Source of the DNA: Escherichia phage HZ2R8
Direction: 5' to 3' (one strand)
Length of the DNA stretch: 39,482 nt
Sequence record: NC_047923.1
Made by a program: the position numbers and the translations under genes. Positions 1 through 30,283 of this stretch are shown piece by piece; positions within the stretch are counted from its first letter, which is position 1; each line of letters opens with the position of its first letter. Under the pieces are notes generated by a model, which saw only the letters and a list, made by a program, of their open reading frames with translations, did not search any database and was not told the DNA's origin.

Positions 1-60
1 AATAACGTTTAAGGATGACACCTGATTGAGACCAAGGATGGTCTTTAATAAGGAGGAGAC

Positions 61-264
61 ATGCTGTCTTTGGACTTCAATAATGAGTTAGTCAAGGCTG
101 CACCTATTGTTGGCACAGGTGTGGCTGATGGCGCTGCGAGGCTTTTCTTTGGGCTGAGTCTTAATGAGTGGTTCTATGTTGCCGCTATCGCCTACACAGT
201 GGTTCAGATTGGTGCCAAGGTAGTCGATAAGATGATTGACTGGAAGAAAGCTAATAAGGAGTGA
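61..264 (+). CDS. 17.5: Holin (class II, T7 gp17.5-like)
   Basis: 67-aa ORF; translation near-identical to T7 gp17.5 as I recall it; SD TAAGGAGG upstream; hydrophobic core. Confidence 0.9.
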   Translation: MLSLDFNNELVKAAPIVGTGVADGAARLFFGLSLNEWFYVAAIAYTVVQIGAKVVDKMIDWKKANKE

Positions 265-269
265 TGTGT

Positions 270-539
270 ATGGAAAAAGATAAGAGCCTTATCACGTTCT
301 TAGAGATGTTGGACACTGCGATGGCACAGCGTATGCTCGCTGACCTTTCGGACCCTGAGCGTCGGACTCCACAGCTCTACAACGCCATCAACAAACTGTT
401 AGACCGACATAAGTTCCAGATTGGTAAGTTGCAGCCGGATGTTCACATCTTGGGCGGCCTTGCTGGTGCTCTTGAAGAGTACAAAGAGAAAGTCGGGGAT
501 AACGGTCTTACGGATGACGATATTTACACTTTACAGTGA
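270..539 (+). CDS. 18: Terminase small subunit (gp18-like)
   Basis: ORF track 261..539 starts at GTG; ATG at 270 gives MEKDKSLITFLEML..., matching the T7 gp18 N-terminus; SD AAGGAG 8 nt upstream. Confidence 0.85.
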   Translation: MEKDKSLITFLEMLDTAMAQRMLADLSDPERRTPQLYNAINKLLDRHKFQIGKLQPDVHILGGLAGALEEYKEKVGDNGLTDDDIYTLQ

Positions 540-545
540 TATACT

Positions 546-570
546 CAAGGCCACTACCTATAGTGGTCTT
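546..570 (+). promoter_or_regulatory. RNase III-type processing hairpin (R18.5-like)
   Basis: CAAGGCCACT...AGTGGTCTTC imperfect hairpin of the family repeated through the genome. Confidence 0.5.
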
Positions 571-633
571 CATGGATGTCATTGTCTATACGAGATGCTC
601 CTACGTGAAATCTGAAAGTTAACGGGAGGCATT

Positions 634-1080
634 ATGCTACAATTTTTACGTAAGCTGGTCCCTTGGGTTCTCGCTGGGATGCTATTCGGATGGGGATGGC
701 AACTTGGGGCAGACTCAATGGACGCCAAGTGGAAACAGGAGGTACAGAATGAGTACGTTAAGAGAGTTGAGGCTACAGCGAGCACTCAAAGAGCACTCAA
801 TGAAATATCGGCTAAGTATCAGGAAGACCTTGCCGCGCTGGAAGGGAGCACTGATAGGATTATTTCTGATTTGCGTAGCGACAATAAGCGGTTGCTCGTC
901 AGAGTCAAAACTACCGGAACCTCCGATGGTAAGTGTGGATTCGAGCCTGATGGTCGAGCCGAACTTGACGACCGAGATGCTAAACGTATTCTCGCAGTGA
1001 CCCAAAGAGGTGACGCGTGGATTCGCGCTCTACAGGATACCATACGTGAACTACAGCATAAGCAGGAGGTTAAACAATGA
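634..1080 (+). CDS. 18.5: i-spanin (Rz-like, gp18.5)
   Basis: 148-aa ORF with N-terminal TM segment; T7 gp18.5-like; GGGAGG SD. Confidence 0.85.
749..1000 (+). CDS. 18.7: o-spanin (Rz1-like, gp18.7), embedded in +1 frame inside 18.5
   Basis: Internal Met of ORF 704..1000 gives MSTLRELRL...ISGC (lipobox-like Cys) and a proline-rich tail; classic embedded Rz1 arrangement. Confidence 0.7.
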   Translation: MSTLRELRLQRALKEHSMKYRLSIRKTLPRWKGALIGLFLICVATISGCSSESKLPEPPMVSVDSSLMVEPNLTTEMLNVFSQ

Positions 1081-2849
1081 GGAAAGGTGTAGCCGCTCAG
1101 TCCAATCGTAATGCGCTCGTTGTGGCGCAACTAAAGGGTGACTTCGTGGCGTTCCTGTTCGTCTTATGGAAGGCGTTAAACCTTCCGGTGCCCACTAAGT
1201 GTCAAATTGATATGGCTAAGGTACTGGCGAATGGGGACAACAAGAAGTTCATCCTACAGGCTTTCCGTGGTATCGGGAAGTCGTTCATCACTTGTGCGTT
1301 CGTTGTGTGGTCCTTATGGCGGGACCCTCAGTTGAAGATACTTATCGTATCAGCTTCTAAAGAACGTGCAGACGCTAACTCCATATTCATCAAGAACATC
1401 ATTGACCTGCTGCCGTTTCTCAGTGAGTTGAAGCCGAGACCCGGACAGCGTGACTCTGTGATTAGTTTTGATGTTGGTCCTGCTAGTCCTGACCACTCGC
1501 CTAGTGTGAAATCAGTAGGTATCACTGGTCAGTTAACTGGTAGTCGTGCTGATATTATCATCGCGGATGACGTTGAGATTCCGTCTAACAGTGCTACTAT
1601 GGGTGCCCGTGAGAAGCTATGGACTCTCGTTCAGGAGTTCGCTGCATTACTTAAACCACTGCCTACTTCTCGTGTTATCTATCTTGGTACGCCTCAAACT
1701 GAGATGACTCTCTATAAGGAACTTGAAGATAACCGTGGGTACACCACTATCATCTGGCCTGCTCTATATCCAAGGACTCGTGAGGAGAATCTCTACTATG
1801 CCCAACGTCTGGCACCAATGCTCCGTGCTGAATACGAGGAGAATCCTGAGGCGCTGGCTGGCACTCCTACAGACCCTGTTCGATTCGATAGGGATGACCT
1901 ACGTGAACGTGAGTTGGAATACGGTAAGGCTGGCTTTACGTTGCAGTTCATGCTTAACCCGAACCTGAGTGATGCCGAGAAGTACCCTCTGAGGCTCCGT
2001 GACGCTATCGTAGCGGCCTTAGACTTAGAGAAGGCACCGATGCATTACCAATGGCTTCCGAACCGTCAGAACATCATTGAGGACCTTCCTAACGTGGGCC
2101 TTAAGGGTGATGACCTTCACACATACCATGAGTGCTCGAATAACTCTGGTCAGTATCAACAGAAGATTCTGGTCATTGACCCAAGTGGTCGTGGTAAGGA
2201 CGAAACAGGTTACGCTGTGCTGTACACCTTGAACGGTTACATCTACCTAATGGAAGCTGGTGGTTTCCGTGATGGCTACTCAGATAAGACCCTTGAGCTA
2301 CTCGCTAAGAAAGCTAAGCAATGGGGAGTCCAGACGGTTGTCTACGAGAGTAACTTCGGTGACGGTATGTTTGGTAAGGTATTCAGTCCTATCCTTCTTA
2401 AACACCACAACTGCGCTATGGAAGAGATTCGTGCTCGTGGTATGAAGGAGATGCGCATTTGTGATACCCTTGAGCCAGTCATGCAGACTCATCGCCTTGT
2501 CATTCGAGATGAGGTCATTAGGGCAGACTATCAGTCCGCTCGTGATGTAGACGGTAAGCATGACGTTAAGTATTCACTGTTCTACCAGATGACTCGTATC
2601 ACTCGCGAGAAAGGTGCTCTGGCACACGATGACCGATTGGATGCCCTTGCGTTAGGCGTTGAGTATCTCCGTGAGTCCATGCAGTTGGATTCCGTTAAGG
2701 TAGAAGGAGAGGTGCTTGCTGACTTCCTTGAGGAACACATGATGCGTCCTACGGTCTCTGCTACACATATCATTGAGATGTCTGTAGGAGGAGTTGATGT
2801 GTACTCTGAGGACGATGAGGGATACGGTACGTCTTTCATTGAGTGGTGA
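1077..2849 (+). CDS. 19: Terminase large subunit (gp19)
   Basis: 590-aa ORF, near-identical to T7 gp19 across its length; Walker A-like GIGKS. Confidence 0.95.
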
Positions 2850-2886
2850 TTTATGAGGCCAAGGAAGGCCGCTTTAAGGAGGTAAT

Positions 2887-3330
2887 ATGATAAGCAAGAA
2901 GAAGTATGTTATCGATAAGGAGACTGGTTGCTGGAACTTTAGGGGATGTAAGACGAAGACTGGTTATGGTCGCATTCGTGTGAACGGAGTCCATTGGATG
3001 GCCCACAGGTATTCCCTGAGTTGTCATCTAGGCAGACCGATAGCTGACGGAATGGTTGTGATGCACCTATGTGATAATCCTTCATGTGTTAACCCTGAGC
3101 ACCTTAAGGAAGGGACTCAGAAGGAGAACATAGAGGACTGCATCTCAAAAGGTCGTGCAACTAAGGCCACAGGTAAACGTGATGCAACTAAGAGAGACCC
3201 TAGCGAGGAACGTAAGGCTATAGTGATTCGAAGATACCATAAAGGCTGGACCGCAACGTCCATAGCGAGATACCATAAGCTCTCTGTGGCGTGGGTAAAG
3301 AGGGTCATTGAGGATTACCTAAGTGATTGA
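2887..3330 (+). CDS. HNH endonuclease (HNH_3-type, putative homing endonuclease) with C-terminal HTH-like tail
   Basis: 147-aa ORF; motif VVMHLCDNPSCVNPEHL; clear paralog of the 22818..23210 ORF; AAGGAGG SD; sits between gene 19 and phiOR where I recall no gene in T7. Confidence 0.8.
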   Translation: MISKKKYVIDKETGCWNFRGCKTKTGYGRIRVNGVHWMAHRYSLSCHLGRPIADGMVVMHLCDNPSCVNPEHLKEGTQKENIEDCISKGRATKATGKRDATKRDPSEERKAIVIRRYHKGWTATSIARYHKLSVAWVKRVIEDYLSD

Positions 3331-3381
3331 TATTTGAAATTAGTGATACAGGTCTAAGTATATGATTACAGACCATTATTC

Positions 3382-3404
3382 TAATTCGACTCACTATAGG
3401 GAGA
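3382..3404 (+). promoter_or_regulatory. Phage RNAP promoter phiOR (variant TAATTCGACTCACTATAGGGAGA)
   Basis: 21/23 match to the T7 promoter consensus; upstream of gene 19.5. Confidence 0.75.
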
Positions 3405-3495
3405 AGCCTACCTAAAGATTACTATAAGACTTAAAGTTACCTATAAGGTAGGTTGTTATTATTGTTAATACAACCAACATAAAGGAGGGAGACTC

Positions 3496-3645
3496 ATGTT
3501 CCGCTTATTGTTGAACCTACTGCGGCATAGAGTCACCTATCGCTTTCTTGTGGTACTTTGTGCTGCCCTTGGGTACGCATCACTTAATGGACACCTCAGT
3601 TCACTGGAGTCTACCGTTTGCTCTTTACTCACTTGTAGTGATTAA
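3496..3645 (+). CDS. 19.5: gp19.5-like small protein
   Basis: 49-aa ORF (below ORF-track cutoff) MFRLLLNLLRHRVTYRFLVV...; AAGGAGGG SD; just downstream of phiOR. Confidence 0.6.
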   Translation: MFRLLLNLLRHRVTYRFLVVLCAALGYASLNGHLSSLESTVCSLLTCSD

Positions 3646-3884
3646 GGTCTTCCTGACCGACTGACGGCTCACCGAGGGATTCAGCGGTATGATTGCATCA
3701 CACCACTTCATCCCTATAGAGTCAAGTCCTAAGGTATACCCGTAAAGAGCCTCTAATGGTCTATCCTAAGGTCTATACCTAAAGATAGGCCATCCTATCA
3801 GTGTCACCTAAAGAGGGTCTCAGAGAGGGCCTAAGGAGTCCCTAGAGGGTCCTTTAAAATATACCATAAAAATCTGAGTGACTA

Positions 3885-4038
3885 TCTCACAGTGTACGGA
3901 CCCAAAGTTCCCCCATAGGGGTACCTAAAGCCCAGCCAATCACCTAAAGTCAACCTTCGGTTGACCTTGAGGGTTCCCTAGGGGTTGGGTTGACCCTTGG
4001 GTTTACCTTTGAGTGTCTCCTTGTCCCTATCTGTTCAG
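3885..4038. repeat. Genome terminal repeat region (single collapsed copy) = concatemer junction / physical genome ends
   Basis: Begins TCTCACAGTGTACGGACC..., which I recall as the T7 left terminus, and runs to ...CCCTATCTGTTCAG; boundaries are inferred by analogy to T7, not determined. Confidence 0.6.
4029..4035 (+). promoter_or_regulatory. Class II pause/termination signal for phage RNAP (ATCTGTT) at the concatemer junction
   Basis: ATCTGTT heptamer at the right edge of the terminal repeat; the functional role is established for T7, here inferred. Confidence 0.45.
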
Positions 4039-4210
4039 TCTCCTAAAGTCACCTCCTAAAGTCCATCATCAAGCCAACGCCTAAAGAATACCCTTAAAGA
4101 CCCATCGAGTCAATCCCTATCTTAAAGATATTCTAAAGACCATCCTAAAGACCATCCTAAAGCTGCCTTGTTGTTACCTATAAAGATATTGCCTTTAATC
4201 ATCGTTATCC

Positions 4211-4233
4211 TAATTCGACTCACTATAGAGAGA
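4211..4233 (+). promoter_or_regulatory. Phage RNAP promoter phiOL (TAATTCGACTCACTATAGAGAGA)
   Basis: Consensus-like 23-mer near the genome left end. Confidence 0.75.
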
Positions 4234-4292
4234 GATAAGACTACTTAAAGGGGCCAAAGAGAGATTACCCCAAAATAATTTAAAAAAGAGTA

Positions 4293-4321
4293 TTGACTTA
4301 AAGAGTCCTACCGGTTACTAT
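4293..4321 (+). promoter_or_regulatory. Host sigma70 early promoter A1-like
   Basis: TTGACT - 17 bp - TACTAT. Confidence 0.7.
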
Positions 4322-4420
4322 TCATCTCGTCAACGGGACAACGGCCTAAAAGCCACTCCCTGAGATACCGGGGTCAACCGGATAAGTAGACAGCCTGATA
4401 AGTCATACGAAAAACAGGCA

Positions 4421-4450
4421 TTGACAACACGCAGTAACATGCAGTAAGAT
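4421..4450 (+). promoter_or_regulatory. Host sigma70 early promoter A2-like
   Basis: TTGACA - 18 bp - TAAGAT. Confidence 0.7.
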
Positions 4451-4526
4451 ACACAGCGTCAACACGGTAGCACGGTGTCTTCTAGGTGACTCAAGCGCAC
4501 CACGGCACACAAAGCAAACAAAACGG

Positions 4527-4555
4527 TTGACAACATGCAGTAAACACGGTACGAT
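4527..4555 (+). promoter_or_regulatory. Host sigma70 early promoter A3-like
   Basis: TTGACA - 17 bp - TACGAT. Confidence 0.7.
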
Positions 4556-4673
4556 GTACCACAGGCAGTAAGGGCGTAGGGATAGGAACCGAGAAACCTG
4601 CCCGTGACCCGCCAAGGATAAGGCACTAGCCATGAGTCGAATTCGGTCACTCATCGCATAAAAGAATAACAGG

Positions 4674-4702: not shown

Positions 4703-4822
4703 GTACCACGAAATGACGGAACAGTGAGTCACCACACTGAAAGGTGATGCGGTCTAACGAAACCTGACCAAAGACGCTCTTTAACAATCTGGTAAACGGC
4801 TCTTGAGTGTACACACGTAGCG

Positions 4823-4858
4823 GATAACTCAAGGGTATCGCAAGGTGCCCTTTATGAT
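4823..4858 (+). promoter_or_regulatory. RNase III-type processing hairpin (R0.3-like) upstream of ocr
   Basis: ...ACTCAAGGGTATCGCAAGGTGCCCTTTATGAT... Confidence 0.5.
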
Positions 4859-4889
4859 ATCCACTAACAACACTATGAGGTAACACACA

Positions 4890-5252: not shown

Positions 5253-5407
5253 TGGCTAACAACACCACGCAATACGGTCTGACCGCTCAAACTGTACTGT
5301 TCTATAGCGACATGGTGCGCTGTGGTTTTGACTGGTCGCTCGCAATGGAACACCTTAAGGAACTGTACGAAAACAACAAGGCAATAGCCTTGGAGTCTGC
5401 TGAGTGA
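5252..5407 (+). CDS. 0.4: gp0.4-like (FtsZ inhibitor in T7)
   Basis: 51-aa [29 protein letters not shown]..., start overlaps the 0.3 stop; below ORF-track cutoff, hand-translated. Confidence 0.65.
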   Translation: MANNTTQYGLTAQTVLFYSDMVRCGFDWSLAMEHLKELYENNKAIALESAE

Positions 5408-5410
5408 TAG

Positions 5411-5445
5411 GCTCAAGGTCGCTCAATATGAGTGGCCTTTATGAT
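5411..5445 (+). promoter_or_regulatory. RNase III-type processing hairpin (R0.5-like), copy 1
   Basis: GCTCAAGGTCGCTCAATATGAGTGGCCTTTATGATTA. Confidence 0.55.
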
Positions 5446-5476
5446 TATCACTTTAACATGCAATAGGACTAACACC

Positions 5477-5677: not shown

Positions 5678-5728
5678 TGGCGCTATTTGCACGCACTGGA
5701 TAATAGCCTTCTAGTCTACCCAGTGATA

Positions 5729-5765
5729 AACTCAAGGTCTCTCCTAGCGAGTGGCCTTTATGATT
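5729..5765 (+). promoter_or_regulatory. RNase III-type processing hairpin, copy 2 (duplicate of R0.5-like)
   Basis: AACTCAAGGTCTCTCCTAGCGAGTGGCCTTTATGATTA; same flanks as copy 1. Confidence 0.55.
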
Positions 5766-5788
5766 ATCATTCTGAAACAGGTGTACCT

Positions 5789-10237: not shown

Positions 10238-10240
10238 CAA

Positions 10241-10275
10241 ACTCAAGGTCACTTAAACGAGTGGCCTTTTATGAT
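10241..10275 (+). promoter_or_regulatory. RNase III-type hairpin (R1.1-like)
   Basis: ACTCAAGGTCACTTAAACGAGTGGCCTTTTATGAT. Confidence 0.55.
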
Positions 10276-10280
10276 TGACC

Positions 10281-16897: not shown

Positions 16898-17167
16898 ATG
16901 TCAAACGTAGCTGAAACTATCCGTCTATCCGATACCGCCGACCAGTGGAACCGCCGAGTTCACATCAACGTTCGTAACGGAAAGGCTACTATGGTTTACC
17001 GTTGGAAGGACTCTAAGTCCTCTAAGAATCACACTCAGCGTATGACGTTGACGGACGAGCAAGCACTGCGTCTGGTCAATGCGCTTACCAAAGCTGCCGT
17101 GACAGCAATCCATGAATCTGGTCGCGTCAATGAAGCTATGGCTATCCTCGACAAGATTGATAGCTAA
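16898..17167 (+). CDS. 4.5: gp4.5-like protein
   Basis: ORF-track start 16871 is TTG; ATG at 16898 with AGGAGA SD gives 89 aa MSNVAETIRLSD... Confidence 0.7.
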   Translation: MSNVAETIRLSDTADQWNRRVHINVRNGKATMVYRWKDSKSSKNHTQRMTLTDEQALRLVNALTKAAVTAIHESGRVNEAMAILDKIDS

Positions 17168-17176
17168 GAGTGGTAT

Positions 17177-17206
17177 ACTCAAGGTCGCCCTAGTGGTGGC
17201 CTTCAT
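17177..17206 (+). promoter_or_regulatory. RNase III-type hairpin (R4.7-like)
   Basis: ACTCAAGGTCGCCCTAGTGGTGGCCTTCAT. Confidence 0.5.
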
Positions 17207-17211
17207 GAATA

Positions 17212-17234
17212 CTATTCTACTCACTATAGGAGAT
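17212..17234 (+). promoter_or_regulatory. Phage RNAP promoter phi4.7 (divergent: CTATTCTACTCACTATAGGAGAT)
   Basis: -8 to +6 match consensus; upstream specificity region carries substitutions, so probably weaker. Confidence 0.6.
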
Positions 17235-17679: not shown

Positions 17680-19794
17680 ATGATCGTTTCTGACATCGAA
17701 GCTAACGCCCTCTTAGAGAGCGTCACTAAGTTCCACTGCGGGGTTATCTACGACTACTCCACCGCTGAGTACGTAAGCTACCGTCCGAGTGACTTCGGTG
17801 CGTATCTGGATGCGCTGGAAGCCGAGGTTGCACGAGGCGGTCTTATTGTGTTCCACAACGGTCACAAGTATGACGTTCCAGCATTGACCAAACTGGCTAA
17901 GTTACAGCTTAACCGTGAGTTCCACCTTCCCCGTGAGAACTGTATCGACACCCTTGTGCTGTCACGCTTGATTCACTCTAACCTGAAGGACACCGATATG
18001 GGTCTTCTGCGTTCCGGTAAACTGCCGGGGAAACGCTTTGGGTCTCACGCTTTGGAGGCGTGGGGTTATCGCTTAGGCGAAATGAAGGGTGAATACAAGG
18101 ACGACTTTAAGCGTATGCTCGAAGAGCAAGGTGAAGAATACGTTGACGGAATGGAGTGGTGGAACTTCAACGAAGAGATGATGGCCTATAACGTTCAGGA
18201 CGTTGTGGTCACTAAGGCTCTCCTTGAGAAGCTACTCTCTGACAAACATTACTTCCCTCCTGAGATTGACTTTACGGACGTAGGCTACACTACGTTCTGG
18301 TCAGAATCCCTTGAGGCCGTTGATGTTGAACATCGTGCTGCGTGGCTGCTCGCTAAGCAAGAGCGCAATGGATTCCCGTTTGACACGAAAGCAATCGAAG
18401 AGTTGTACGTAGAGTTAGCTGCTCGACGCTCTGAGTTGCTCCGTAAATTGACCGAAACGTTCGGCTCGTGGTATCAGCCTAAAGGTGGCACAGAAATGTT
18501 CTGCCATCCGAGGACTGGTAAGCCATTGCCTAAATACCCTCGCATTAAGACACCTAAAGTTGGTGGTATCTTTAAGAAGCCTAAGAACAAGGCACAGCGA
18601 GAGGGCCGTGAGCCTTGTGAACTGGATACCCGTGAATACGTTGCTGGTGCTCCATATACTCCTGTAGAGCACGTAGTGTTTAACCCTTCGTCCCGTGACC
18701 ACATTCAGAAGAAACTTCAAGAGGCTGGATGGGTCCCCACGAAGTACACCGATAAGGGTGCGCCTGTGGTGGACGATGAGGTACTCGAAGGAGTACGTGT
18801 AGATGACCCTGAGAAGCAAGCCGCTATCGACCTTATTAAAGAATACCTGATGATTCAGAAGAGAATCGGTCAGTCTGCTGAGGGAGACAAGGCATGGCTT
18901 CGTTACGTTGCTGAGGATGGTAAAATTCATGGTTCTGTTAACCCTAATGGAGCAGTTACGGGTCGTGCTACCCATGCGTTCCCCAACCTTGCGCAAATTC
19001 CGGGTGTACGTTCTCCTTATGGTGAGCAGTGCCGCGCTGCTTTTGGCGCTGAACATCACCTAGATGGACTTACAGGTAAGCCTTGGGTTCAGGCTGGTAT
19101 AGACGCCTCAGGTCTGGAGTTACGTTGCTTGGCCCACTTCATGGCTCGCTTTGACAACGGTGAGTACGCTCACGAGATTCTTAATGGTGACATTCACACT
19201 AAGAATCAGATAGCTGCCGAATTGCCTACCCGTGATAACGCCAAGACGTTCATCTATGGGTTCCTCTATGGTGCTGGTGATGAGAAGATTGGACAGATTG
19301 TAGGTGCTGGTAAAGAGCGCGGTAAGGAACTCAAGAAGAAATTCCTTGAGAACACCCCTGCGATTGCGGCACTCCGAGAGTCTATCCAACAGACACTTGT
19401 TGAGTCCTCTCAGTGGGTAGCTGGTGAACAGCAAGTCAAGTGGAAACGCCGCTGGATTAAAGGTATGGATGGTCGTAAGGTACACGTCCGTAGTCCTCAC
19501 GCTGCCCTGAATACCCTACTGCAATCCGCTGGTGCTCTAATCTGCAAACTGTGGATTATCAAGACCGAAGAGATGCTCGTAGAGAAAGGCTTGAAGCATG
19601 GTTGGGATGGGGACTTTGCGTACATGGCATGGGTCCACGATGAGATTCAGGTAGGTTGTCGTACCGAAGAGATTGCTCAGGTGGTCATTGAGACTGCACA
19701 GGAAGCGATGCGCTGGGTAGGAGACCACTGGAACTTCCGGTGTCTTCTGGATACCGAAGGTAAGATGGGTCCTAATTGGGCCGTATGTCACTGA
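17680..19794 (+). CDS. 5: DNA polymerase (family A, gp5)
   Basis: 704-aa ORF near-identical to T7 DNA polymerase, same length. Confidence 0.97.
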
Positions 19795-20319: not shown

Positions 20320-20477
20320 TGGTTCGTGACACTGTAACAATTCCTCGTGATGCGTGGAACGATATGCAGGGCTACATCGACTCTCTGGAACGTGAGAACG
20401 ATAGCCTTAAGAATCAACTGATGGAGGCTGACGAATACGTGGCTGAACTAGAGGAGAAACTTAATGGCACTCCTTGA
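20319..20477 (+). CDS. 5.9: gp5.9 (RecBCD inhibitor in T7)
   Basis: Internal ATG of ORF 20229..20477 gives 52 aa MVRDTVTIPRDAWNDMQGYIDSLERENDSLKNQLMEADEYVAELEEKLNGTP. Confidence 0.7.
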   Translation: MVRDTVTIPRDAWNDMQGYIDSLERENDSLKNQLMEADEYVAELEEKLNGTP

Positions 20478-21366
20478 CCTTAAACAATTCTATGAGTTAC
20501 GCGAAGGCTGTGACGACAAGGGCATCCTCGTGATGGATGGTGACTGGTTGGTCTTCCAAGCTATGAGTGCTGCTGAGTTTGATGCCTCTTGGGAGGAAGA
20601 GATTTGGCACCGCTGCTGCGACCACGCTAAGGCCCGTCAGATTCTTGAGGATTCCATTAAGTCCTACGAGACCCGCAAGAAGGCTTGGATAGGCGCTCCG
20701 ATTGTCCTTGCGTTCACCGATAGCGTTAACTGGCGTAAAGAACTGGTTGACCCGAACTACAAGGCTAACCGTAAGGCAACGAAGAAACCTGTGGGTTACT
20801 TTGAGTTCCTTGATGCCCTCTTTGAGCGAGAAGAGTTCTACTGCATACGTGAGCCTATGCTTGAGGGTGATGACGTTATGGGAGTTATCGCTTCCAATCC
20901 GTCTGCATTCGGTGCTCGTAAGGCTGTAATCATCTCGTGCGATAAGGACTTTAAGACAATCCCTAACTGTGACTTCCTGTGGTGTACCACTGGTAACATC
21001 CTGACTCAGACCGAAGAGTCCGCTGACTGGTGGCACCTCTTCCAGACCATCAAAGGTGACATTACCGATGGTTACTCTGGGATTGCCGGATGGGGCGATA
21101 CCGCTGAGGACTTCTTGAATAACCCGTTCATAACCGAGCCTAAAACGTCTGTGCTTAAGTCTGGGAAGAACAAAGGCCAAGAGGTTACCAAGTGGGTTAA
21201 ACGTGCCCCTGAGCCTCATGAGACGCTTTGGGACTGCATTAAGTCCATCGGTGCTAAGGCTGGTATGACCGAAGAGGACGTTATCAAGCAGGGCCAGATG
21301 GCTCGCATCCTACGGTTCAATGAGTACAACTTTATTGACAAGGAGATTTACCTGTGGCGACCGTAG
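20464..21366 (+). CDS. 6: 5'-3' exonuclease (gp6)
   Basis: 300-aa ORF near-identical to T7 gp6. Confidence 0.95.
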   Translation: MALLDLKQFYELREGCDDKGILVMDGDWLVFQAMSAAEFDASWEEEIWHRCCDHAKARQILEDSIKSYETRKKAWIGAPIVLAFTDSVNWRKELVDPNYKANRKATKKPVGYFEFLDALFEREEFYCIREPMLEGDDVMGVIASNPSAFGARKAVIISCDKDFKTIPNCDFLWCTTGNILTQTEESADWWHLFQTIKGDITDGYSGIAGWGDTAEDFLNNPFITEPKTSVLKSGKNKGQEVTKWVKRAPEPHETLWDCIKSIGAKAGMTEEDVIKQGQMARILRFNEYNFIDKEIYLWRP

Positions 21367-21467
21367 CGTATATTGGCATTGGTCTTTGTGTCCTAGGAAT
21401 GTGCCTCATTGCGTGGGGCCTCTGGGATTTAGCCCGAATAATCAAGGCGTTACAAGACTCTAAGTGA
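21354..21467 (+). CDS. 6.3: gp6.3-like small hydrophobic protein
   Basis: 37-aa ORF from GTG at 21354 with AGGAGA SD; hand-translated. Confidence 0.4.
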   Translation: MATVAYIGIGLCVLGMCLIAWGLWDLARIIKALQDSK

Positions 21468-21470
21468 TAA

Positions 21471-21525
21471 ACTCAAGGTCCCTAAATTAATACGACTCAC
21501 TATAGGGAGATAGGGGCCTTTATGA
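21471..21525 (+). promoter_or_regulatory. RNase III-type hairpin (R6.5-like) with the phi6.5 promoter in its loop
   Basis: ACTCAAGGTCCC[...promoter...]AGGGGCCTTTATGATTA. Confidence 0.55.
21488..21510 (+). promoter_or_regulatory. Phage RNAP promoter phi6.5 (perfect consensus), within the loop of an RNase III-type hairpin
   Basis: TAATACGACTCACTATAGGGAGA. Confidence 0.9.
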
Positions 21526-21564
21526 TTATTACTTTAAGATTTAACTCTAAGAGGAATCTTTATT

Positions 21565-21819
21565 ATGCTAACACCTATTAACCATTTACTTAAGAACCCT
21601 AACGATATTCCAGACGTGCCTCGTGCAACCGCTGAGTATCTACAGGTTCGATTCAACCATGCGTATCTCGAAGCGTCTGGTCATATAGGATTTATGCGTG
21701 CTAGTGGTTGTAGTGAAGCCCACATCTTGGGTTTCATTCAGGGCCTACAGTATGCCTCTAACATCATTGACGAGATTGAGATGCGTAAGGAACAACTAAG
21801 AGAAGATGGGGAGGATTGA
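21565..21819 (+). CDS. 6.5: gp6.5-like protein
   Basis: 84-aa ORF downstream of phi6.5. Confidence 0.7.
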
Positions 21820-24925: not shown

Positions 24926-25849
24926 ATGGCTGAATCTAATGCTGATGTATACGCGTCCTTTGGCGTAAACTCCGCTGTGATGTCTGGTGGTTCCGTTGAG
25001 GAACACGAGCAGAATATGCTGGCTCTGGATGTTGCTGCCCGTGATGGCGATGATGCAATCGAGTTAGCGTCTGACGAAGTGGAAACTGAGCGTGACCTGT
25101 ATGACAACTCTGACCCATTCGGTCAAGAGGACGATGAGGGACGCATTCAGGTTCGCATTGGTGATGGTTCTGAGCCGACTGATGTGGACACTGGGGAAGA
25201 AGGTTTTGATGGCACAGAAGGTTCCGAAGAGTTTACCCCGCTCGGTGAAACTCCAGAAGAACTGGTAGCCGCCTCTGAGCAACTTGGTGAGCACGAAGAG
25301 GGCTTCCAAGAGATGATTAACATTGCTGCCGAGCGCGGTATGAGTGCTGAGACCATTGAGGCAATCCAGCGTGAGTACGAGGAGAACGAAGAGTTATCCG
25401 ATGCGTCATACGCTAAGCTGGCTGAAATTGGTTACACTAAGGCTTTCATCGACTCGTACATTCGTGGTCAAGAAGCTCTGGTGGAGCAGTACGTAAACAG
25501 TGTCATTGAGTACGCTGGTGGTCGTGAGCGTTTTGACGCGCTGTACAATCACCTTGAGACGCACAACCCTGAGGCTGCACAGTCGCTGGACAATGCGTTG
25601 ACCAATCGTGACTTAGCGACCGTTAAGGCTATCATCAACTTGGCTGGTGAGTCTCGTGCTAAGGCGTTCGGTCGTAAGCCAACTCGCAGTGTGACTAATC
25701 GCGCTATTCCTGCTAAACCTCAAGCGACTAAGCGTGAAGGCTTTTCTGACCGTAGCGAGATGATTAAGGCTATGAGTGACCCTCGGTATCGTACAGATGC
25801 AAACTATCGTCGTCAAGTCGAACAGAAAGTAATCGACTCGAACTTCTGA
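24926..25849 (+). CDS. 9: Scaffolding protein (gp9)
   Basis: ATG at 24926 with GGAGA SD; acidic 307-aa protein MAESNADVYASFGVNS... Confidence 0.9.
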   Translation: MAESNADVYASFGVNSAVMSGGSVEEHEQNMLALDVAARDGDDAIELASDEVETERDLYDNSDPFGQEDDEGRIQVRIGDGSEPTDVDTGEEGFDGTEGSEEFTPLGETPEELVAASEQLGEHEEGFQEMINIAAERGMSAETIEAIQREYEENEELSDASYAKLAEIGYTKAFIDSYIRGQEALVEQYVNSVIEYAGGRERFDALYNHLETHNPEAAQSLDNALTNRDLATVKAIINLAGESRAKAFGRKPTRSVTNRAIPAKPQATKREGFSDRSEMIKAMSDPRYRTDANYRRQVEQKVIDSNF

Positions 25850-30204: not shown

Positions 30205-30233
30205 CTACTAACGGTTCTCCCTATGGTGACAAT

Positions 30234-30256
30234 TAATACGACTCACTATAGGGAGA
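30234..30256 (+). promoter_or_regulatory. Phage RNAP promoter phi13 (perfect consensus)
   Basis: TAATACGACTCACTATAGGGAGA. Confidence 0.9.
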
Positions 30257-30283
30257 ACAATACGACTACGGGAGGGTTTTCTT

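What the first reader, a model, noticed from the sequence alone, without database searches (positions are those of the whole stretch)
21471..21525. phi6.5 promoter sits inside the loop of an RNase III-type hairpin
The hairpin arms ACTCAAGGTCCC and AGGGGCCTTTATGATTA enclose the entire phi6.5 promoter. Read-through transcripts from upstream would contain the full processing hairpin, whereas transcripts initiated at phi6.5 (+1 at 21505) carry only its 3' arm. So the 5' end structure of gene 6.5 mRNA depends on which promoter made it. I believe T7 has the same layout, so this is conserved rather than new.
Basis: partly seen in the sequence, partly recalled or inferred. Interest (0 to 1): 0.25.

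Follow-up and report, generated by a model that had tools for sequence, protein, structure and literature searches.

The report
Known T7 R6.5 site holding φ6.5

Summary
An exact 23-bp T7 consensus promoter lies at 21488-21510, with +1 at 21505. It fills the 26-nt apical loop of a two-stem RNA hairpin spanning 21462-21534.

The hairpin matches T7 R6.5 at 72 of 73 bases. GenBank/RefSeq records for T3 and Yersinia phages Y and R already annotate R6.5 as a roughly 72-nt feature that fully contains φ6.5.

Across 13 distinct orthologues, 94% of cells pair and 9 of 18 pairs show changes on both sides (0 of 500 shuffles reach this). G·U pairs and strand asymmetry point to an RNA structure on the + strand. 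The same lower stem, internal loop and CCUUUAU|GAU motif recur in at least six other RNase III-type hairpins in the window. Those have apical loops of 3-7 nt.

Inferred mechanism: read-through transcripts are cut between U21523 and G21524. φ6.5 transcripts start inside the loop, lack both 5' arms and escape cutting. Gene 6.5 mRNA therefore has two 5' ends 19 nt apart, and the hairpin stays on the upstream RNA.

Novelty: already known. Interest is low.

The parts
20464..21366 (+). Gene 6 (exonuclease), the upstream class II gene whose read-through transcripts enter the hairpin
   Evidence: ORF. Matching records annotate an exonuclease here.
21354..21467 (+). Gene 6.3 (37 aa). Its stop codon UGA (21465-21467) lies inside the 5' arm of the lower stem.
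   Evidence: ORF, sequence. T7 and T3 annotate gene 6.3 at the same position.
21462..21534 (+). Complete R6.5 RNase III-type hairpin (73 nt)
   Evidence: Fold. It corresponds to the 72-nt R6.5 features annotated in JQ957925, JX000007 and NC_003298. Covariation.
21462..21470 (+). Lower stem, 5' arm AAGUGAUAA
   Evidence: helix 1, 94% of cells paired
21471..21474 (+). Internal loop, 5' side ACUC
   Evidence: The same ACUC occurs in paralogous hairpins.
21475..21484 (+). Upper stem, 5' arm AAGGUCCCUA
   Evidence: helix 2, 6 of 9 pairs with changes on both sides
21485..21510 (+). Apical loop of 26 nt, equal to promoter positions -20 to +6
21488..21510 (+). φ6.5 promoter, an exact T7 class III consensus (-17 to +6); transcription starts at G21505
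   Evidence: 0 mismatches; none expected by chance. T7 annotates φ6.5 +1 at 18545, which aligns with 21505.
21511..21520 (+). Upper stem, 3' arm UAGGGGCCUU, present in both transcript types
21521..21525 (+). Internal loop, 3' side UAUGA, with the predicted RNase III cut between U21523 and G21524
   Evidence: Inferred by homology. T7 cleavage coordinates recalled from Dunn & Studier fall at the same place in the shared motif CCUUUAU|GAU at R0.3, R0.5, R1.1, R18.5 and R6.5. T7 18563 aligns with 21523.
21526..21534 (+). Lower stem, 3' arm UUAUUACUU
21548..21555 (+). Shine-Dalgarno sequence UAAGAGGA of gene 6.5
   Evidence: Read directly from the sequence
21565..21819 (+). Gene 6.5 (84 aa, DUF2717), the first class III gene
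   Evidence: ORF. tblastn matches of up to 100% identity (91.7% to T7) to genes annotated as 6.5. PMC5592923 names it the first class III gene.

Best explanation
The element is the orthologue of the bacteriophage T7 R6.5 RNase III processing site, with the class III promoter φ6.5 in its apical loop.

Transcripts made from upstream class II promoters run through gene 6/6.3 and contain the whole 73-nt hairpin: a 9-bp lower stem, a 4x5 internal loop and a 10-bp upper stem. Host RNase III makes a single cut on the 3' side of the internal loop, predicted between U21523 and G21524. The upper stem-loop stays on the 3' end of the upstream RNA. Gene 6.5 mRNA is released with a 5'-monophosphate leader that is essentially unstructured.

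The phage RNA polymerase also starts at G21505, inside the loop. These transcripts lack both 5' arms, so they cannot form the substrate and keep a 5'-triphosphate GGGAGAUAGGGGCCUUUAU extension. Gene 6.5 mRNA therefore has two 5' ends 19 nt apart.

Shown here: the sequence, the fold, orthology, covariation and public annotation. Inferred: the exact cut position and the fate of the products in this particular phage.
For: - The promoter is an exact consensus at 21488-21510.
- The hairpin fold is -22.6 kcal/mol, z = -2.65.
- The hairpin matches T7 at 72 of 73 positions.
- R6.5 is annotated as containing φ6.5 in T3 and in Yersinia phages Y and R.
- R6.5 is described as a strong cleavage site in T7 (PMC5592923), with the transcription start upstream of the cut (PMC6938266).
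- In 13 orthologues, 94.3% of cells pair and 9 of 18 pairs change on both sides; 0 of 500 shuffles reach this, and slid controls pair at 35-63%.
- The layout is kept in 7 genera whose promoter sequences differ visibly.
- G·U pairs, together with a minus-strand fold of only -15.8 (z = -0.79), place the structure in + strand RNA.
- The lower stem, ACUC/UAUGA loop and CCUUUAUGAU motif are shared with six other hairpins in the window and with the T7 R sites at their cleavage coordinates.
- The processed leader 21524-21600 is unstructured: -4.5 kcal/mol, z = 0.15.
Against: - There are no experimental data for this phage.
- The cleavage coordinate rests on my recollection of Dunn & Studier 1983. That paper is not held in the library. 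One search checks the coordinates only for internal consistency.
- A 26-nt apical loop is unusual for T7-type sites, where the paralogues have 3-7 nt.
- The base 5' of the predicted cut is U here and C in T7.
- The RNA-seq in PMC6938266 cannot separate the promoter effect from the cleavage effect.
- Rfam has no family for such sites, so there is no independent model score.
Confidence: 0.9

Rival explanations
1. The nesting is passive packing. Hairpin and promoter are both functional, but the promoter sits in the loop only because the apical loop tolerates any sequence and T7-like genomes are compact. Nesting itself would have no regulatory consequence beyond exempting φ6.5 transcripts from cutting.
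For: - Paralogous hairpins with the same stems have short, unrelated apical loops.
- L066 carries an extra 8-9 nt in its loop.
- Ghunavirus phages place the hairpin downstream of the start instead.
- T3 annotates several other promoter/R-site arrangements: R1.1, R1.3 and R3.8 downstream of a promoter, and R4.7 with no promoter.
Against: The arms hug the promoter across promoter types in 7 genera, with the 3' arm starting at +5 to +7 in the T7-, T3- and KP32-type sequences I read. That pattern fits selection on the arrangement, but it is also expected if both elements are simply conserved in place.
Confidence: 0.5
2. The inverted repeat acts at the DNA level, for example as a cruciform or as a structure that modulates opening of the φ6.5 promoter, and not as an RNA processing signal.
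For: The arms flank the promoter symmetrically.
Against: - The stems need G·U pairs: columns 5-86 in 9 of 13 sequences, 21-69 in 6 of 13, and 18-72 in 3 of 13. These become C·A mismatches in DNA or on the other strand.
- A Watson-Crick repeat search does not report the arms.
- The minus strand folds no better than its shuffles.
- From established knowledge, T7 RNA polymerase needs a duplex promoter from -17 to -5.
- The stem and loop motif is shared with promoter-less RNase III sites.
Confidence: 0.03
3. The hairpin is a transcription terminator or pause site that ends class II transcription before class III genes.
For: It is a stable hairpin at the class II/III boundary.
Against: The terminator scan finds nothing in 21200-21800. 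The loop is 26 nt, no U-run follows the stem, and the AU-rich lower stem and internal loop are unlike Tφ. T7 literature describes read-through and cleavage here.
Confidence: 0.03
4. The complementarity around the promoter is a chance match with no function.
For: The single-sequence z-score is only -2.65.
Against: Covariation with 0 of 500 shuffles, conservation across 7 genera, and a module shared with paralogous sites.
Confidence: 0.01

Closest known systems
Bacteriophage T7 R6.5 RNase III site with promoter φ6.5 (Dunn & Studier 1983; T7 +1 at 18545, cut after 18563)
   Same: Same position between genes 6.3 and 6.5. 72 of 73 hairpin bases are identical and the promoter is identical. The stems, internal loop and loop content are the same.
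   Different: One base differs: U21523 here against C18563 in T7, the nucleotide just 5' of the predicted cut. U is what the other 12 orthologues carry, and it matches the R0.3/R0.5/R1.1/R18.5 motif.
Phage T3 R6.5/φ6.5 (NC_003298: stem_loop 17135-17206, promoter 17160-17182)
   Same: The same nested architecture, explicitly annotated. The lower stem and internal loop are identical.
   Different: The loop holds a T3-specificity promoter. The upper stem is AAGGCUCUCU/AGAGGGAGCCUU, with compensatory changes relative to the T7 type.
T7/T3 R13 with promoter φ13 (window 30214-30258)
   Same: The promoter and its start site lie inside an RNase III hairpin, so φ13 transcripts lack the 5' arm.
   Different: Here the promoter core (-8 to +8) is itself the 3' arm of a 16-bp perfect stem rather than sitting in the loop. 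R13 is described as a weak site.
T7 R1.1, the model RNase III substrate (window about 10238-10276)
   Same: The same ACUC / UAUGA-type internal loop, AAGGUC...GGCCUU upper stem and CCUUUAU|GAU cleavage motif.
   Different: The apical loop is small. Promoter φ1.1A lies wholly upstream, so its transcripts contain the full upper stem-loop.
Pseudomonas phage gh-1: putative RNase III site R8 after promoter phi10, upstream of the gene 6.5 homologue
   Same: A promoter and a putative RNase III hairpin in the same intergenic position.
   Different: The hairpin (346-395) lies downstream of the start. It overlaps only the last 8 bases of the promoter feature (330-353), so it is not nested.

Membership tests
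T7-group RNase III processing site R6.5 | Positional orthology: intergenic between gene 6.3 and gene 6.5 | tested here: met
T7-group RNase III processing site R6.5 | Sequence identity to the T7 site | tested here: met
   72 of 73 bases identical to T7 18502-18574
T7-group RNase III processing site R6.5 | Irregular hairpin of about two helical turns, with two stems separated by an asymmetric internal loop | tested here: met
   9 bp + 4x5 loop + 10 bp; -22.6 kcal/mol, z = -2.65
T7-group RNase III processing site R6.5 | Conserved cleavage motif CCUUUAU|GAU on the 3' side of the internal loop | tested here: met
   CCTTTATGATTATTAC at 21517-21532 with 0 mismatches. The same motif lies at the T7 cleavage coordinates.
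T7-group RNase III processing site R6.5 | Base pairing maintained in evolution (covariation) | tested here: met
   94.3% of cells paired, 9 of 18 pairs changed on both sides, 0 of 500 shuffles
T7-group RNase III processing site R6.5 | No RNase III antideterminant base pairs in the proximal and distal boxes | not tested
   I did not score the box positions. Near-identity to T7 R6.5 makes a problem unlikely.
T7-group RNase III processing site R6.5 | Cleavage by host RNase III in vivo or in vitro | not testable with these tools
   Reported for T7 R6.5 as a strong site (PMC5592923), not for this phage
T7 class III promoter (φ6.5) | 23-bp consensus TAATACGACTCACTATAGGGAGA from -17 to +6 | tested here: met
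   0 mismatches at 21488-21510. It is one of 5 exact and 12 near-exact copies in the window, with 0 expected by chance.
T7 class III promoter (φ6.5) | Located just upstream of gene 6.5, the first class III gene | tested here: met
   +1 at 21505, ATG at 21565
T7 class III promoter (φ6.5) | Initiation by the phage RNA polymerase at G+1 | not testable with these tools
   The gene 1 region aligns to T7 at about 88% DNA identity. Activity was not measured.

The most novel reading that the evidence does not exclude
The nesting itself may be selected, not just inherited. In the 13 aligned sequences (6 genera), the hairpin arms co-vary around promoters with visibly different sequences while staying tight against the promoter (the 3' arm starts at +5 to +7 in the T7-, T3- and KP32-type sequences I read). 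RNase III-processed read-through mRNA and primary φ6.5 mRNA would then carry nearly the same leader, giving equalised 5' ends at the class II/III boundary. More broadly, the apical loops of a duplicated RNase III hairpin module could serve as landing sites where phage promoters are acquired.
Probability: 0.2. Interest if true: 0.35.

Novelty: already known. Interest (0 to 1): 0.08.

Why it matters
It matters little as a discovery. The arrangement has been part of the T7 map since 1983 and is annotated in public T3 and Yersinia phage records. Its practical value is for annotation and engineering. The φ6.5 promoter cannot be moved or swapped without breaking R6.5, and gene 6.5 mRNA is expected to have two 5' ends 19 nt apart. 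The covariation shown here is a clean computational confirmation that the hairpin is a selected RNA structure across Studiervirinae.

Tried and rejected
- **Rfam.** A scan of the whole window at gathering thresholds gave no family. T7 RNase III sites are evidently not modelled there.
- **14-mer scan.** Scanning IMG/VR for TATGATTATTACTT returned mostly chance AT-rich matches. About 25 loci were true T7-like sites.
- **Literature.** Look-ups for the phiA1122, phiYeO3-12 and 'Refactoring T7' papers failed because they are not held. One full-text search returned nothing and two were rejected for a term shorter than three characters. Dunn & Studier 1983 could not be read directly.
- **New partner for the orphan 3' arm.** In φ6.5-initiated RNA the MFE pairs AUAGGGGCC with the start of gene 6.5, but z = -1.30 and 20 of 200 shuffles fold as well. 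I rejected this as unsupported.
- **Alternative 8-nt inverted repeat.** AATAATCA 21437-21444 / TGATTATT 21523-21530 is not used in the MFE and loses a pair in T7. I treated it as chance.
- **Terminator reading.** No terminator-like site was found.
- **DNA or minus-strand reading.** Rejected on the G·U pairs and the weak minus-strand fold.
- **Alignment limits.** MAFFT mis-registered the NahiliMali lower stem and the fPS-54-ocr upper stem by one column. These count as unpaired, so that result is conservative.
- **Kayfunavirus.** These hairpins are too different to align and were judged from their folds only.

Full report
**What the window is.** The window is a circularly permuted, complete genome of a T7-like phage (genus Teseptimavirus). 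It aligns to T7 over 36.6 kb at 88.4% identity. T7's right end maps to window 29-4023 and its left end begins at about 3885. The 421 bases around the finding match 186 phage records, mostly Escherichia and Yersinia T7-like phages, at 90-98% identity.

**Checking the observation.** The 23-bp T7 consensus promoter TAATACGACTCACTATAGGGAGA occurs at 21488-21510 with no mismatch, so +1 is G21505. The window holds 12 matches with up to 3 mismatches, against none expected by chance.

Folding 21455-21545 as RNA gives -22.6 kcal/mol, z = -2.65, and 2 of 200 shuffles fold as well. The architecture is:
- lower stem AAGUGAUAA (21462-21470) / UUAUUACUU (21526-21534)
- internal loop ACUC (21471-21474) / UAUGA (21521-21525)
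- upper stem AAGGUCCCUA (21475-21484) / UAGGGGCCUU (21511-21520)
- 26-nt apical loop 21485-21510, which is exactly promoter positions -20 to +6

The quoted "arms" mix upper-stem bases with internal-loop bases, and the stated range omits the 5' arm of the lower stem. The stop codon of gene 6.3 (UGA, 21465-21467) lies inside that arm.

**What it is.** The hairpin differs from T7 at one base, T7 C18563 against window U21523. Public records already describe the layout:
- T3 RefSeq annotates stem_loop "RNase III recognition site R6.5" at 17135-17206, containing "T3 promoter phi6.5" at 17160-17182.
- Yersinia phages Y and R annotate a 72-nt R6.5 feature containing φ6.5.
- PMC5592923, redrawing Dunn & Studier 1983, lists R6.5 among the strong cleavage sites and calls gene 6.5 the first class III gene.

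**Evolutionary test.** I fetched the region upstream of gene 6.5 from 17 Studiervirinae. MFE folds keep the promoter's start site inside a hairpin whose 5' arm lies upstream. This holds in Teseptimavirus, Teetrevirus, Przondovirus, Ningirsuvirus, Berlinvirus, Helsettvirus and Kayfunavirus, although the promoter sequence differs among them.

An alignment of 13 distinct orthologues was scored against the window's structure. It gives 94.3% of cells paired and 9 of 18 pairs with changes on both sides, 6 of them among the 9 upper-stem pairs. None of 500 shuffles reaches these values, and slid controls pair at 35-63%. Two one-column mis-registrations in the MAFFT alignment count against the structure, so the result is conservative.

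Kayfunavirus hairpins are unrelated in sequence but also enclose the promoter. K1F and SH4 differ by a compensatory U-A to A-U change.

The layout is not universal. In Pseudomonas phage gh-1 the annotated putative RNase III stem-loop follows the start site. PP81 and Katbat are unclear.

**RNA or DNA, and which strand.** The stems need G·U pairs: columns 5-86 in 9 of 13 sequences, 21-69 in 6 and 18-72 in 3. A Watson-Crick inverted-repeat search does not report the arms. The minus strand folds to only -15.8 kcal/mol, z = -0.79. No terminator-like site is present. The structure is therefore selected in + strand RNA.

**Relation to the other RNase III sites.** The lower stem (GUGAUA.../...UAUCAC), the ACUC/UAUGA internal loop and the AAGGNC.../...GGCCUU base of the upper stem recur across other hairpins in the window, though R1.1 lacks the GUGAUA-type lower stem. 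They lie at about 533-586, 4818-4868, 5402-5453, 5721-5770, 10238-10276 and 17168-17217. Those have apical loops of 3-7 nt. Only R6.5 has a long loop, and that loop is the promoter.

In T7 the cleavage coordinates I recall from Dunn & Studier are 890, 1468, 5887, 13892, 18563 and 36856. All fall at the same point of the shared motif, CCUUUAU|GAU. That supports both the coordinates and a predicted cut here between U21523 and G21524. The U at 21523 is shared by the other 12 aligned orthologues; only T7's own R6.5 carries C.

**Mechanism.** Shown: the hairpin, the promoter in its loop and their conservation.

Inferred from the T7 literature and homology: read-through class II transcripts contain the whole hairpin and are cut once by host RNase III at 21523|21524. 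The upper stem-loop stays on the 3' end of the gene 6/6.3 RNA. The released gene 6.5 mRNA has a 5'-P leader that is essentially unstructured (-4.5 kcal/mol, z = 0.15).

Transcripts started at G21505 lack both 5' arms. They cannot form the substrate and keep a 19-nt 5'-PPP extension. Their predicted alternative fold is not better than shuffles (z = -1.30).

In RNase III-positive cells, however, the difference is a 19-nt extension and the phosphorylation state. It is not a hairpin sitting at the 5' end.

**Why the promoter is nested.** This remains open. Passive packing into a sequence-tolerant loop is at least as likely as selected coupling. The tight, conserved placement of the arms fits either view.

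**Verdict.** The feature is already known and annotated in close and more distant relatives. Interest is low.

Noticed in passing
window 30214-30258: φ13/R13: a 16-bp perfect hairpin GUUCUCCCUAUGGUGA/UCACUAUAGGGAGAAC in which promoter positions -8 to +8 form the 3' arm, with +1 at 30251. The fold is -26.3 kcal/mol, z = -5.81. This is a second promoter nested in an RNase III site. T3 annotates the same arrangement (R13 25443-25480 containing φ13 25457-25479).
   Followed up: partly
window ~533-586, 4818-4868, 5402-5453, 5721-5770, 10238-10276, 17168-17217: Six further T7-type RNase III hairpins share all or part of the R6.5 module (lower stem, ACUC/UAUGA internal loop, AAGG...CCUU upper-stem base). 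Their apical loops are 3-7 nt. By position they probably correspond to R18.5, early-region sites, R1.1 and R4.7.
   Followed up: partly
window 21465-21467: The gene 6.3 stop codon UGA lies inside the 5' arm of the R6.5 lower stem. Ribosomes terminating there would transiently open the RNase III substrate.
   Followed up: no
window 29-4563: The window is a circular permutation of a complete genome. T7's right end (36312-39918) maps to 29-4023 and T7's left end (1-750) to 3885-4563. The overlap at 3885-4023 looks like a single copy of the terminal repeat.
   Followed up: partly
L007 289-371 and L134 188-270 (Berlinvirus); L009 ~274-348 (Helsettvirus): In these genera the R6.5 upper stem extends into the promoter. 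Promoter bases from about -5 to +12 pair with an upstream complement. The result is a long, near-perfect duplex with the start site in the 3' arm.
   Followed up: partly
L024 ~130-184 and 198-2779: An IMG/VR contig carries the same RNase III hairpin module with a small (~5-nt) apical loop and no promoter. It sits in front of a gene whose product resembles (by eye) a T7-like large terminase subunit. That gene appears split by an intervening ORF at 1552-2115 that may be a homing endonuclease (not scanned).
   Followed up: no
L010 330-395 (Pseudomonas phage gh-1); L136: In Ghunavirus the putative RNase III hairpin upstream of the gene 6.5 homologue lies downstream of the promoter start rather than around it. 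The nested layout therefore appears absent from the two Pseudomonas phages (Ghunavirus) examined and was seen only in the enterobacterial genera.
   Followed up: partly
window 21437-21444 / 21523-21530: A perfect 8-nt inverted repeat, AATAATCA/TGATTATT, offers an alternative partner for the 3' lower arm and spans the predicted cut. The MFE does not use it. It is probably chance.
   Followed up: no
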